Part shown: piece by piece, positions 15,980-18,076 of the stretch
Position numbering within the stretch: position 1 is the first letter of the stretch
Layout of the letters: every line of letters begins with the position of its first letter
From: the human T2T-CHM13v2.0 reference genome, Homo sapiens
Reading direction: 5' to 3'
Assembly: GCA_009914755.4 (NCBI GenBank)
Contig: CP068257.2
Location: forward strand, 31,712,001-31,776,000
DNA length: 64,000 nucleotides
Notes under the pieces: model-generated
Told to the model about the DNA's origin: nothing
What the model saw: the letters and a program-made list of their open reading frames with translations, nothing else
Database searches by the model: none
Translations under genes and position numbers: made by a program

Positions 15980-16264
15980 GGCCCGGGCACGGTGGCTCAC
16001 ACCTGTAATCCCAGCACTTTGGGAGGCTGAGGCAGGCAGATCATGAGGTCAAGAGATCGAGACCAGCCTGGCCAACGTGGTGAAACCCCATCTCTACTAA
16101 AAATACAAAAATTAGCCGGGTGTGGTGGCGCGCGCCTGTTGTCTTAGCTACTCAGGAGGCTGAGGCAGGAGAATCGCTTGAAAACAGGAGGTGGAGGTTG
16201 CAGTGAGCCGAGATCACGCCACTGCACTCCAGCCTGGTGACAGCGTGAGACTCTTTAAAAAAAG
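15980..16264 (+). mobile_element. AluS SINE, sense, inside the IFNAR1 3'UTR
   Basis: GGCCCGGGCACGGTGGCTCACACCTGTAATCCCAGCACTTTGGGAGGCTGAGGCAGGCAGATCATGAGGTCAAGAGATCGAGACCAGCC...; TSD gaaatta. Confidence 0.9.
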
Positions 16265-17775
16265 AAATTAAAAGAGTTGAGACAAACGTTTCCTACATTC
16301 TTTTCCATGTGTAAAATCATGAAAAAGCCTGTCACCGGACTTGCATTGGATGAGATGAGTCAGACCAAAACAGTGGCCACCCGTCTTCCTCCTGTGAGCC
16401 TAAGTGCAGCCGTGCTAGCTGCGCACCGTGGCTAAGGATGACGTCTGTGTTCCTGTCCATCACTGATGCTGCTGGCTACTGCATGTGCCACACCTGTCTG
16501 TTCGCCATTCCTAACATTCTGTTTCATTCTTCCTCGGGAGATATTTCAAACATTTGGTCTTTTCTTTTAACACTGAGGGTAGGCCCTTAGGAAATTTATT
16601 TAGGAAAGTCTGAACACGTTATCACTTGGTTTTCTGGAAAGTAGCTTACCCTAGAAAACAGCTGCAAATGCCAGAAAGATGATCCCTAAAAATGTTGAGG
16701 GACTTCTGTTCATTCATCCCGAGAACATTGGCTTCCACATCACAGTATCTACCCTTACATGGTTTAGGATTAAAGCCAGGCAATCTTTTACTATGCATTA
16801 AGACCTCTGATTCAAAACTTATTAGAACAGTAGCTTCTGCTGGAATTTGCAATCACTGAAGTCATAGAAAATAGGTAACTATCTAATTAGAGAAATAATT
16901 GTTGTATTTTAAGATCTGAGAGTGTGTACAAGTTTTAGTATACATGCCATGCCAGAAGATAGTGTATGCAAGAAGTCTTGGGACCAGAAAATGGCAATGA
17001 TAGGAGACTGACATAGAAGAAGAATGCTTCCCTAGGAAAAAGGTCGCTGGCTTTGGTGCAAGAGGAAGAAGAATGTTCCACTGGAAGCCTGAGCACCTAA
17101 TCAGCTCTCAGTGATCAACCCACTCTTGTTATGGGTGGTCTCTGTCACTTTGAATGCCAGGCTGGCTTCTCGTCTAGCAGTATTCAGATACCCCTTCTGC
17201 TCAGCCTGCTTGGCGTTAAAATACAAATCATTGAACTGAGGGGGAAAAATGTAACTAGGAAGAAAAACCCAATTTAAGAAATTACATAATGCTTTCCAAA
17301 GGCACCTACAACTTAGTTTTAAATTACTTGCTACTGGGGATTACCCATGGATATCCTTAATAGGCAGGAAGTCTGGGAATTCTGGTGGCCTCTAGGGCAG
17401 TGTTCTCACAGCACCGTTCCGACAGGGACCAGTGAAAGAAAAGAGACAAAGTTAGAACGTGCTGGGGAGCGGCCATTTCTAAGGCCAGTCTGGTTTAAGT
17501 AGTCATTTCTGCTGAAAAAACAGATGATCCTGGTGGAAGAAAAGGTTGAAGGCAGCTGCCCTCGGGAGGGCTGTGATGCTCGGCACATCCTGCCTGGCAC
17601 ATACACGTGTCTGCAGGCCACACCGTGCATGTCCCCAGACCTGCCGCCTGGCTTCTGGAGTGCTTCAAGCAGAGCATGGTGGGTCATTGAGGAGACCCAG
17701 GAATCTCATCTGAGAACCCACTCTCTGCCGGAGAACCCCATGGTGACACATTTTCATCTTTCTGACCAGAGGCTG

Positions 17776-18076
17776 TTTTTTTTTTTTTTTGAGACAGTCT
17801 CATTCTGTTGCCCAGGCTGGAGTGCAGTGGCTTGATCTCGGCTCACTGCAACCTCGCCTCCCGGGTTCAAGCAATTCTCTGCCGCAGCCTCCAGAGTAGC
17901 TGGGATAACAGGTGCCCACCACCACACCCCACTAATTTTTGTATTTGTATTTTTAGTAGAGATGGGGTTTCACCATGTTGGTCAGGCTGGTCTTGGACTC
18001 CTGACCTCATGCTCCACCCGCTTCGGCCTCCCAAAGTTCTGGGATTACAGGTGTGAGCCACCGTGCACGGCCGGCC
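17776..18076 (-). mobile_element. Alu SINE, antisense, inside the IFNAR1 3'UTR
   Basis: poly-T 17776-17791, GAGACAGTCTCATTCTGTTGCCCAGGCTGGAGTGCAGTGGC...GGTGTGAGCCACCGTGCACGGCCGGCC. Confidence 0.9.

What the first reader, a model, noticed from the sequence alone, without database searches (positions are those of the whole stretch)
15980..18076. Inverted Alu pair inside the IFNAR1 3'UTR, a candidate long dsRNA stem
A sense AluS (15980-16264) and an antisense Alu (17776-18076) lie ~1.5 kb apart within the same terminal exon. Inverted-repeat Alus in 3'UTRs are the classic substrates for ADAR1 A-to-I hyper-editing. They can promote nuclear retention and, when unedited, engage MDA5 or PKR. Finding such a structure in the mRNA of the type I interferon receptor is notable, because ADAR1 p150, MDA5 and PKR are interferon-induced. 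That could couple receptor mRNA fate to the dsRNA-sensing state of the cell. The flanking IFNAR1 introns also hold many Alus in both orientations, giving pre-mRNA partners.
Basis: partly seen in the sequence, partly recalled or inferred. Interest (0 to 1): 0.5.

Follow-up and report, generated by a model that had tools for sequence, protein, structure and literature searches.

The report
Edited inverted Alu pair, IFNAR1 3'UTR
Two primate-specific Alu repeats in opposite orientation sit in the long 3' untranslated region of the interferon receptor gene IFNAR1, can fold into a ~260-bp RNA duplex and each carry one published RNA-editing site; this is a real but ordinary example of a structure found in over 5% of human genes.

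Summary
A sense AluS (15980-16264) and an antisense AluS (17776-18076) lie 1.5 kb apart, downstream of the IFNAR1 stop codon (15792-15794). They are 87.5% complementary. In a minimum-free-energy fold of the whole long 3'UTR they pair with each other (262 bp).

I tied window coordinates to GRCh38 with a published HGVS/VCF variant. Two published IFNAR1 3'UTR A-to-I sites then map onto adenosines in the arms, one in each: chr21:33355807 = A16052 and chr21:33357727 = A17972. So the pair is almost certainly an ADAR substrate, and the distal Alu is present in expressed RNA.

- **Inclusion is conditional.** Proximal and distal poly(A) sites are both used in human cells. Only the long isoform carries both Alus.
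- **It is recent.** Three non-primate relatives have clean empty sites for both Alus, and a tamarin has no inverted pair.
- **It is common.** The window holds 55 inverted Alu pairs within 3 kb. Inverted Alus are predicted in over 5% of human genes.
- **It is a poor MDA5 ligand.** The longest perfect run is 28 bp.

The proposed coupling to dsRNA sensing is untested, and the general idea was already raised in 2016. Verdict: real, already catalogued, low novelty.

The parts
15562..15794 (+). Coding part of the IFNAR1 terminal exon (YFSEQPLKN...SEELQQDFV), with the stop codon TGA at 15792-15794.
   Evidence: Translation. 93% identity to a record named IFNAR1 of Saguinus oedipus. Colinear with the spliced cDNA contig L002.
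15795..20075 (+). Long 3'UTR, ending just past the tandem AATAAA hexamers at 20038-20047. It is the only isoform that contains both Alus. The exact cleavage site was not determined.
   Evidence: Hexamer scan. AATAAA is conserved in the tamarin. Outgroup cDNA and genomic contigs are colinear to 19490 and 20400. NM_000629.3 c.*436 maps to 16230.
15980..16264 (+). Sense AluS, the 5' arm of the duplex. It starts 186 nt after the stop codon and is flanked by a target-site duplication (15971-15980 and 16264-16274). GRCh38 is about chr21:33,355,735-33,356,019.
   Evidence: Orthologous copy in the tamarin at L001 10401-10690. Empty site in L002, L004 and L006.
16052..16052 (+). Published A-to-I site chr21:33355807, annotated IFNAR1 3'UTR, with 17% and 24% editing in the two whole-blood groups compared. 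In the predicted duplex it is an A opposite C18001, with a 5' A and a 3' G.
   Evidence: PMC9064541 Table 2. Coordinate anchor rs1371264018 = c.*436dup. Fold.
17776..18076 (-). Antisense AluS, the 3' arm of the duplex, with a T15 tract at 17776-17790 in the mRNA sense. GRCh38 is about chr21:33,357,531-33,357,831.
   Evidence: Empty site in the outgroups (17770->18073). Absent from the tamarin within a larger 1,030-nt missing block.
17972..17972 (+). Published editing site chr21_33357727+ for IFNAR1, from glioma RNA-seq. It is an A paired to U16081 inside the longest uninterrupted helix (53 bp, G-U pairs included).
   Evidence: PMC8997934 supplementary table. Mapping and fold.
16769..16774 (+). 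ATTAAA, my candidate for the proximal poly(A) signal. Using it would give a 3'UTR of about 1 kb that keeps the sense Alu and drops the antisense Alu.
   Evidence: The hexamer and its surroundings are conserved in L002 and L004. Proximal and distal site usage in human cells is shown by 3'-end sequencing and 3' RACE, but without coordinates. Assigning the proximal site to this hexamer is my inference.
18306..18311 (+). ATTAAA, a possible intermediate poly(A) signal 230 nt downstream of the antisense Alu.
   Evidence: Conserved in the tamarin and L006. Usage unknown.
20038..20047 (+). Tandem AATAAA hexamers, the distal poly(A) signal.
18967..19084 (+). Partial Alu made of a left monomer only (FLAM/AluJ-like). 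It is a weak alternative partner for the antisense Alu within the long UTR.
   Evidence: Co-fold gain is only -80 kcal/mol. It is not paired with the antisense Alu in the full-UTR fold.
14306..14590 (+). Intronic sense Alu in the last intron. It competes for the antisense Alu in the pre-mRNA only.
   Evidence: Co-fold gain of -266 kcal/mol, against -276 for the UTR partner.

Best explanation
This is an ordinary, primate-specific inverted-repeat Alu pair (IRAlu) in the long 3'UTR isoform of IFNAR1.

**Origin (shown).** Two AluS elements inserted independently into a long 3'UTR that was already there in the mammalian ancestor.

**When the duplex can form (partly shown).** If the distal poly(A) signal near 20040 is used, both Alus sit in one exon. 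That the two arms then fold back on each other is predicted, not shown. The result would be an imperfect duplex of about 260-280 bp that closes a 1.5-kb loop.

**Editing (shown from published sites mapped here).** ADAR, most likely ADAR1, deaminates adenosines in both arms.

**Escape by poly(A) choice (usage shown, position inferred).** A proximal poly(A) site, probably ATTAAA at 16769, would remove the antisense arm. SRSF1 and CFIm25/NUDT21 shift the choice between sites.

**Consequence for the long isoform (inferred by analogy).** The most likely effect is a modest loss of translational efficiency that does not depend on editing, as measured for other 3'UTR IRAlus. The duplex would also add to the cell's pool of endogenous dsRNA that ADAR1 keeps away from PKR and, less efficiently, MDA5. 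Nothing indicates that it was selected as an interferon feedback device.
For: - **Anatomy and gene identity:**
- **Duplex:** 87.5% complementarity. Gain of -276 kcal/mol, against -10.7 +/- 3.5 for shuffles. In the fold of the full 4,281-nt UTR, 262 of 285 sense-Alu bases pair with the antisense Alu.
- **Coordinate mapping:** rs1371264018 at chr21:33355983 T>TC = NM_000629.3:c.*436dup. This lands on the T-CC context at 16228-16230, exactly 436 nt after the stop codon. rs74717635 also lands on its reference base.
- **Editing:** chr21:33355807 = A16052 in the sense Alu. chr21_33357727+ = A17972 in the antisense Alu. The two flanking bases at 17972 are both C, so only the exact offset gives an A.
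- **Other reports of editing:** IFNAR1 is listed among genes with editing-enriched regions. An 'enriched editing region of IFNAR1' is reported in tumours. IFNAR1 is described as hyper-edited in glioma.
- **Poly(A) choice:** (human cells; mouse macrophages).
- **Lineage specificity:** empty sites for all three UTR Alus in L002, L004 and L006. There is no long inverted repeat in those UTRs or in the tamarin.
- **Class behaviour:** Capshew et al. 2012 found such mRNAs in the cytoplasm and extensively edited. Translation fell 2-5 fold independently of inosine. Inverted Alus are predicted in over 5% of human genes.
Against: - Only one published site per arm was recovered. I could not query REDIportal or raw RNA-seq, so dense clusters of editing are not shown here.
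- A16052 sits where the Alu consensus has G. Mis-mapped reads from other Alus could therefore mimic A>G at that site. This does not apply to A17972, which matches the consensus.
- The blood data came from ribo-depleted total RNA, so some editing could occur in pre-mRNA. There the intronic Alu at 14306-14590 is almost as good a partner.
- The proportion of long to short isoform in any tissue is unknown to me.
- In Capshew et al. the effect on translation depended on distance from the stop codon. It was absent at 15-65 nt and present at 472 nt or more. IFNAR1 sits at 186 nt, between those values.
- The fold is a thermodynamic prediction. It ignores bound proteins and co-transcriptional folding.
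Confidence: 0.8

Rival explanations
1. The pair is a feedback device. Interferon-induced ADAR1 p150, PKR or MDA5 act on the IFNAR1 long-isoform duplex. Receptor mRNA export, stability or translation then tracks the dsRNA-sensing state of the cell, and poly(A) site choice sets how much mRNA is subject to this control.
For: - The duplex and editing in both arms are real.
- Inclusion of the second arm depends on regulated poly(A) site choice.
- 3'UTR shortening coincides with more IFNAR1 protein in mouse macrophages. Mouse has no Alus, so this bears on UTR length only.
- Editing level at the IFNAR1 sites differs between disease groups or is reported as prognostic.
- Blango & Bass raised a related idea for dsRNA-pathway genes.
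Against: - No experiment was found. A search for IFNAR1 3'UTR with ADAR1 and editing returned nothing.
- The inverted pair is missing from the tamarin and from three non-primate UTRs, so it cannot be a conserved part of interferon signalling.
- Inverted Alus are predicted in over 5% of human genes, and 55 such pairs occur in this window alone. Finding one in an immune gene is expected by chance.
- Effects of IRAlus on translation are independent of editing, and nuclear retention is not general.
Confidence: 0.1
2. The editing comes from the pre-mRNA. The two Alus are edited in the nucleus while paired with intronic or read-through Alus. Most mature IFNAR1 mRNA ends at a proximal site, so the 3'UTR duplex hardly exists in the cytoplasm.
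For: - The intronic + Alu at 14306-14590 pairs with the antisense Alu almost as well as the UTR partner does (-266 against -276 kcal/mol).
- The Alu just beyond the distal poly(A) site, and the intronic antisense Alus, also pair.
- The blood dataset used ribo-depleted total RNA.
- A proximal poly(A) site is used.
Against: - For the sense Alu, the nearest inverted partner by far is the UTR antisense Alu, 1.5 kb away. The intronic antisense Alus are about 3.7 kb away.
- NUDT21 knockdown is needed to shorten the IFNAR1 UTR in human fibroblasts, so the long form is normally present.
- IFNAR1 is annotated UTR3 in the supplement that lists the A17972 site.
- The reference transcript NM_000629.3 is used with 3'UTR numbering.
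Confidence: 0.2
3. The two A>G calls are artefacts. They would be SNPs or reads mis-mapped from paralogous Alus, and the pair would not be edited to any meaningful extent.
For: - A16052 lies where the Alu consensus has G.
- Only single sites were recovered from the literature.
Against: - Two independent studies and tissues report sites, one in each arm. Both are A on the transcribed strand.
- A17972 matches the Alu consensus, so reads from paralogues would not give G there.
- The blood study filtered on mapping quality and then re-sequenced an IFNAR1 amplicon, where it found further sites.
- Three other reports describe editing-enriched or hyper-edited regions in IFNAR1.
Confidence: 0.05

Closest known systems
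3'UTR inverted-repeat Alus (IRAlus) such as those of NICN1, PSMB2, MPST and BPNT1. Sources: Chen, DeCerbo & Carmichael 2008, recalled from memory and cited; Capshew et al. 2012.
   Same: - Two full-length Alus in opposite orientation lie in one 3'UTR, 1.5 kb apart.
- They are predicted to form an imperfect intramolecular duplex of about 260-280 bp.
- A-to-I sites are reported in both arms.
   Different: - No reporter, localisation or translation data exist for IFNAR1.
- The first arm lies 186 nt from the stop codon. That falls between the distances that were inactive (15-65 nt) and active (472 nt or more) in Capshew et al.
- The second arm can be dropped by poly(A) site choice.
Editing-enriched regions (EERs) of the 'long, edited dsRNAome' described by Blango & Bass 2016 (PMC4889969).
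   Same: - IFNAR1 is named among the human genes that carry such regions.
- The paper links these regions to alternative 3'UTR usage. It also raises the idea that molecules that sense dsRNA are regulated by dsRNA in their own messages.
   Different: I cannot say whether its IFNAR1 region is this UTR pair or an intronic one.
- Most of the human regions in that study were intronic.
Endogenous MDA5 and PKR ligands that ADAR1 masks. These are unedited IRAlus, as in Ahmad et al. 2018 and Chung et al. 2018. Both papers are recalled from memory and were not read here.
   Same: - It is a long Alu:Alu hybrid in the 3'UTR of an mRNA expected to reach the cytoplasm.
- It contains uninterrupted helices of 53, 28, 22, 22 and 20 bp, counting G-U pairs. 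That should be enough for PKR binding in principle.
   Different: - Complementarity is 87.5%, with 24 helix interruptions and a longest perfect Watson-Crick run of 28 bp.
- From memory, wild-type MDA5 filament formation is sensitive to such mismatches.
- IFNAR1 is mentioned in the one MDA5-filament preprint I checked only as a guide-RNA target, not as a ligand.
Mouse Slc7a2 (CTN-RNA) and similar cases of 3'UTR dsRNA that depends on poly(A) site choice. Source: Prasanth et al. 2005, as cited.
   Same: The inverted SINE pair is present only in the long isoform, so poly(A) site choice decides whether the dsRNA exists.
   Different: Nuclear retention and stress-induced cleavage, which define CTN-RNA, have not been examined for IFNAR1.

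Membership tests
3'UTR IRAlu / ADAR hyper-editing substrate | Two Alu elements in opposite orientation on the same transcript, within about 2-3 kb. | tested here: met
   The + Alu is at 15980-16264 and the - Alu at 17776-18076, 1,511 nt apart.
3'UTR IRAlu / ADAR hyper-editing substrate | Both elements lie in the mature mRNA, in the same exon and upstream of the poly(A) site that is used. | tested here: inconclusive
   This holds for the long isoform: distal AATAAA at 20038-20047, a colinear outgroup cDNA, and IFNAR1 editing sites annotated as 3'UTR. A proximal site is also used. Isoform proportions were not obtainable.
3'UTR IRAlu / ADAR hyper-editing substrate | The arms can form a long intramolecular duplex. 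| tested here: met
   87.5% complementarity. 260-262 predicted pairs. Gain of -276 kcal/mol against -10.7 +/- 3.5 for shuffles. The arms pair with each other in the full-UTR fold. This is an in silico result only.
3'UTR IRAlu / ADAR hyper-editing substrate | A-to-I editing in both arms, on the transcribed strand. | tested here: met
   Published sites map to A16052 and A17972. Dense clusters were not verified, because only one site per arm was recovered.
3'UTR IRAlu / ADAR hyper-editing substrate | A measurable effect on expression, by lower translation or by nuclear/paraspeckle retention. | not testable with these tools
   This needs reporter and fractionation experiments. For the class, lower translation is documented and retention is disputed.
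Endogenous MDA5 agonist | A long, nearly perfect duplex that supports filament formation by wild-type MDA5. | tested here: not met
   12.5% mismatches. 24 separate helices. Longest perfect Watson-Crick run of 28 bp. The mismatch requirement is recalled from Ahmad et al. 2018. Binding itself cannot be tested here.
PKR-activating dsRNA | A continuous A-form helix of at least about 30-33 bp, accessible in the cytoplasm. | tested here: inconclusive
   The fold predicts a 53-bp uninterrupted helix (G-U pairs allowed) and several of 20-28 bp. The length threshold is from memory. Cytoplasmic presence and PKR binding were not tested.
Staufen-mediated decay through 3'UTR Alu pairing with a lncRNA Alu | A single 3'UTR Alu pairs in trans with an Alu-containing lncRNA and recruits STAU1. 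| not tested
   The short isoform would keep one sense Alu that could in principle do this. No data were found. The mechanism is cited.

The most novel reading that the evidence does not exclude
The IFNAR1 inverted Alu pair, together with regulated poly(A) site choice, acts as a catarrhine-specific rheostat. The long isoform is translationally damped or sensed as dsRNA. Its output changes with interferon-induced ADAR1 p150 or PKR activity, so receptor abundance feeds back on dsRNA load. This could also bear on trisomy-21 interferon hyperactivity, since the gene lies on chromosome 21.
Probability: 0.08. Interest if true: 0.55.

Novelty: already known. Interest (0 to 1): 0.2.

Why it matters
IFNAR1 dosage sets sensitivity to type I interferon. 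If the long-UTR duplex measurably lowers receptor output, poly(A) site choice and ADAR1 activity would add a primate-specific layer of control over interferon responsiveness. That would matter for interferonopathies, Down syndrome and ADAR1-targeted cancer therapy.

As things stand, the element is one of thousands of edited 3'UTR Alu pairs. Editing at IFNAR1 3'UTR sites is already used empirically as a blood biomarker and a tumour prognostic marker. No mechanism has been shown, and the finding adds no new kind of biology.

Tried and rejected
1. **Rfam at gathering thresholds.** It flagged only three other Alus in the window as Metazoa_SRP-like, not these two. This is uninformative.
2. **Literature searches.** Searches for a dedicated study covered IFNAR1 with inverted Alu/ADAR1, IRAlus, 'IFNAR1 3' + ADAR1 + editing, and edQTL. 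None found a paper on this structure.
3. **Searches by coordinate prefix.** The GRCh38 search returned only the two papers already in hand. The hg19 search gave nothing usable.
4. **Supplementary data.** The Blango & Bass supplementary table is not held. The 3' RACE primer table of the SRSF1 preprint is an image. The exact EER and proximal poly(A) coordinates therefore remain unknown.
5. **Papers where IFNAR1 is not an editing or poly(A) target.** The CPSF6, MDA5-filament, trisomy-21 and systemic sclerosis papers mention IFNAR1 only as a knockout control, guide target, dosage gene or reference entry.
6. **Dating the antisense Alu from the tamarin.** The tamarin lacks a 1,030-nt block (17255-18284) that is ancestral in non-primates. 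This is a lineage-specific deletion, not an empty site, so it does not date the insertion.
7. **UGUA and GU-rich context of the candidate poly(A) signals.** It did not discriminate between them.
8. **Target-site duplication of the antisense Alu.** Only CTGACC is shared by the two flanks, which is unconvincing.
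Full report

Yes. Reading 15700-18400 shows a forward Alu beginning GGCCCGGGCACGGTGG at about 15980. It ends in a short A-tail at 16257-16263. A reverse-complement Alu begins with a T15 tract at 17776-17790 and ends ...CACGGCCGGCC near 18076.

The repeat finder reports arms of 127, 71 and 44 nt between these intervals, at 85-98% complementarity. A BLAST probe with an Alu consensus finds 15983-16253 (+) and 17784-18072 (-).

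A global alignment of the sense Alu with the reverse complement of the antisense Alu gives 246 matches, 35 mismatches and a few indels. That is 87.5% identity. The longest perfect run is 28 bp, or 44 bp counting G-U pairs. Both elements match an AluSx consensus better than AluY or AluJo (90.5% and 86.8%).

**2. Gene context**

The frame ending at TGA 15792-15794 reads [23 protein letters not shown]...SEELQQDFV* and follows a splice acceptor near 15561. This peptide is 93% identical to a record named 'Interferon alpha/beta receptor 1, partial [Saguinus oedipus]'.

A spliced cDNA contig from another mammal (L002) maps onto nine window blocks, from 1327-1420 to 15556 onward. This gives the IFNAR1 exon map.

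A published variant table lets me tie the window to GRCh38. rs1371264018 is chr21:33355983 T>TC = NM_000629.3:c.*436dup. Counting 436 nt from the stop codon gives 16230, which is the last C of the T-CC context at 16228-16230. So window position = chr21 position - 33,339,755 in the 3'UTR. rs74717635 also lands on its reference base. Further upstream the numbering drifts by 1 nt.

The window is therefore chr21:~33.340-33.404 Mb. It covers the 3' half of IFNAR1 up to exon 1 of IFNGR2, whose ATG is at 63805.

**3. Does the pair form a duplex?**

Folded alone, the two Alus give -106 and -98 kcal/mol. Co-folded they give -479 kcal/mol with 260 intermolecular pairs. The gain is -276 kcal/mol, against -10.7 +/- 3.5 with 60 dinucleotide-shuffled partners.

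I also folded the whole long 3'UTR (15795-20075, 4,281 nt) without constraints. In that fold 262 of the 285 sense-Alu bases pair with the antisense Alu. The partial Alu at 18967-19084 does not compete.

The duplex is broken into 24 helices. The longest are 53, 28, 22, 22 and 20 bp, and there are 17 G-U pairs. All of this is thermodynamic prediction.

**4. Is it edited?**

- **Sense arm.** A blood RNA-seq study lists 'IFNAR1 3UTR chr21 33355807', with 17% editing in controls and 24% in patients. It then re-sequenced an IFNAR1 amplicon and found further sites. The position maps to window 16052. That is an A in the left arm of the sense Alu, opposite C18001 in the predicted duplex, with a 5' A and a 3' G. 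From general knowledge, this is a favoured ADAR context.
- **Antisense arm.** A glioma study lists IFNAR1 as edited in 'UTR3' and names site chr21_33357727+. It maps to window 17972. That is an A in the antisense Alu, paired to U16081 within the 53-bp helix. Both neighbouring bases are C, so only the exact offset yields an A.
- **Other reports.** IFNAR1 is listed among genes with editing-enriched regions. An 'enriched editing region' of IFNAR1 is linked to survival in pancreatic cancer.
- **Caveats.** I recovered one site per arm, not clusters. A16052 lies where the Alu consensus has G, so mis-mapping is conceivable there, though not at 17972. The blood libraries were made from total RNA.

**5. 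Is the second Alu in the mature mRNA?**

Candidate poly(A) hexamers downstream of the stop codon are ATTAAA at 16267, 16769 and 18306, and AATAAA at 20038/20042.

- The one at 16267 arose by mutation of the right copy of the sense Alu's target-site duplication.
- ATTAAA at 16769 lies in a block conserved in two non-primates.
- ATTAAA at 18306 and AATAAA at 20042 are conserved in the tamarin.

Experiments show both kinds of site in use. A 2026 preprint finds a proximal and a distal site in the human IFNAR1 3'UTR by 3'-end sequencing and 3' RACE, and SRSF1 knockdown lowers proximal use. NUDT21 knockdown shortens the IFNAR1 3'UTR in human lung fibroblasts. In mouse macrophages, shortening goes with more IFNAR1 protein.

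So the long form exists and is regulated, and only it carries both arms. Neither coordinates nor isoform proportions were available. Assigning the proximal site to 16769 is my inference. UGUA and GU-rich context did not discriminate.

**6. Evolutionary history**

- **Non-primate outgroups.** Three Logan contigs of unidentified species (L002, L004, L006) are 77-81% identical to the window over the terminal coding exon and its immediate flanks, and 62-68% in the UTR. They align colinearly with the window 3'UTR and break exactly at the three Alus: 15981->16250/16264, 17770->18073, and 18950->19087. The single copy GAAATTACAG at the empty site confirms the target-site duplication of the sense Alu. 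The long 3'UTR is therefore ancestral, and the Alus are later insertions.
- **Tamarin.** In the tamarin (L001) the sense Alu is orthologous. Window blocks 16552-17175 and 17255-18284 are missing, and the second of these includes the antisense Alu. Since the outgroups retain those blocks, these are tamarin deletions and do not date the antisense insertion. The tamarin UTR Alus are all in sense orientation.
- **Inverted repeats.** No inverted repeat longer than 30 nt exists in the tamarin UTR or in the three outgroup UTRs. The dsRNA is thus lineage-restricted and is not a conserved feature of the receptor gene.

**7. How unusual is it?**

Not very. Alus make up 26% of the window, against 16% of the UTR. 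The window has 50 full-length copies split 26 to 24 by strand, and 55 inverted pairs no more than 3 kb apart. On the same metric those pairs average 79% identity (range 70-89%), and the UTR pair scores 84.5%.

[quoted passage not shown] In the pre-mRNA, the intronic Alu at 14306-14590 is nearly as good a partner for the antisense arm (-266 kcal/mol).

**8. Mechanism**

*Shown or strongly supported:*
- two AluS insertions in one exon of the long isoform
- a very stable predicted fold-back
- editing in both arms
- inclusion of the second arm that depends on poly(A) site choice

*Inferred by analogy:*
- Capshew et al. found endogenous IRAlu mRNAs in the cytoplasm and on ribosomes, edited to the same extent in nucleus and cytoplasm. 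Translation was reduced 2-5 fold independently of inosine.
- That effect appeared when the duplex lay 472-1842 nt from the stop codon, and not at 15-65 nt. IFNAR1's first arm is at 186 nt, so the size of any effect cannot be predicted.
- For innate sensors, the interrupted duplex (longest perfect run 28 bp) is a poor fit for wild-type MDA5. It has helices long enough for PKR. Both thresholds are from memory.

**9. Comparison, novelty and verdict**

The element meets the structural and editing criteria of a 3'UTR IRAlu. Its functional criteria are untested.

Blango & Bass (2016) raised the possibility that molecules that sense dsRNA are regulated by dsRNA in their own messages, and listed IFNAR1/2 among further immune genes with edited regions. 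No paper in the library studies the IFNAR1 3'UTR duplex mechanistically.

It is a catalogued member of a very common class, and nothing indicates special function. I score interest at 0.2. I give the feedback-rheostat reading a probability of about 0.08, with an interest of 0.55 if it proved true.

Noticed in passing
window 63000-64000 (ATG at 63805): Exon 1 of IFNGR2 (MRPTLLWSLLLLLGVFAAAAAAPP...) lies at the right edge of the window. It sits in a CpG island with 80% GC and CpG observed/expected of 0.92. The window therefore spans the IFNAR1-IFNGR2 intergenic region.
   Followed up: partly
L001 10996-11093, corresponding to window 16552-17175 and 17255-18284: The tamarin IFNAR1 3'UTR lacks two blocks of 624 and 1,030 nt that are present in three non-primate mammals. 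These are lineage-specific deletions in the tamarin. It has gained two sense-oriented Alus of its own at L001 11262-11484 and 11962-12251.
   Followed up: yes
window 16264-16274: The ATTAAA hexamer at 16267 sits in the right copy of the sense Alu's target-site duplication. The left copy and the empty sites in other mammals read GAAATTACAG. The right copy reads GAAATTAAAAG, so sequence change after insertion made a poly(A)-signal-like hexamer directly after the Alu A-tail. Whether it is used is unknown.
   Followed up: partly
window 18967-19084: A third Alu-derived piece lies in the long 3'UTR. It is a sense-oriented left monomer only (FLAM/AluJ-like, about 80% identity to consensus) and is also absent from non-primates. 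It is a weak partner for the antisense Alu (-80 kcal/mol).
   Followed up: yes
window 15795-20400, compared with L002, L004 and L006: Outside the Alus, the roughly 4-kb IFNAR1 3'UTR aligns along its whole length with non-primate mammals at 62-68% identity. A non-primate spliced cDNA contig carries at least 2.8 kb of it. A long 3'UTR is therefore ancestral, and it contains locally well conserved blocks, for example around 16760-16830.
   Followed up: partly
window 7391-7538 (-), 14441-14588 (+), 28199-28346 (-): Rfam reports three Metazoa_SRP hits just above the gathering score. All three lie inside Alu elements, which derive from 7SL RNA. They are not SRP RNA genes.
   Followed up: no
window 3639 and 14066: The first base of the V168 codon (rs2257167) is G at 3639, not at the 3638 predicted from the 3'UTR offset. 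The window also carries the common A allele at rs2856973. The sequence is human-like but not base-for-base the GRCh38 numbering upstream of the terminal exon.
   Followed up: partly
window ~16000 (hg19 chr21:347280xx): A review of microRNA-binding-site polymorphisms in liver cancer mentions IFNAR1 11 times and contains a number beginning 347280. If that number is an hg19 coordinate, it would fall at or beside the sense Alu. I did not read the paper.
   Followed up: no
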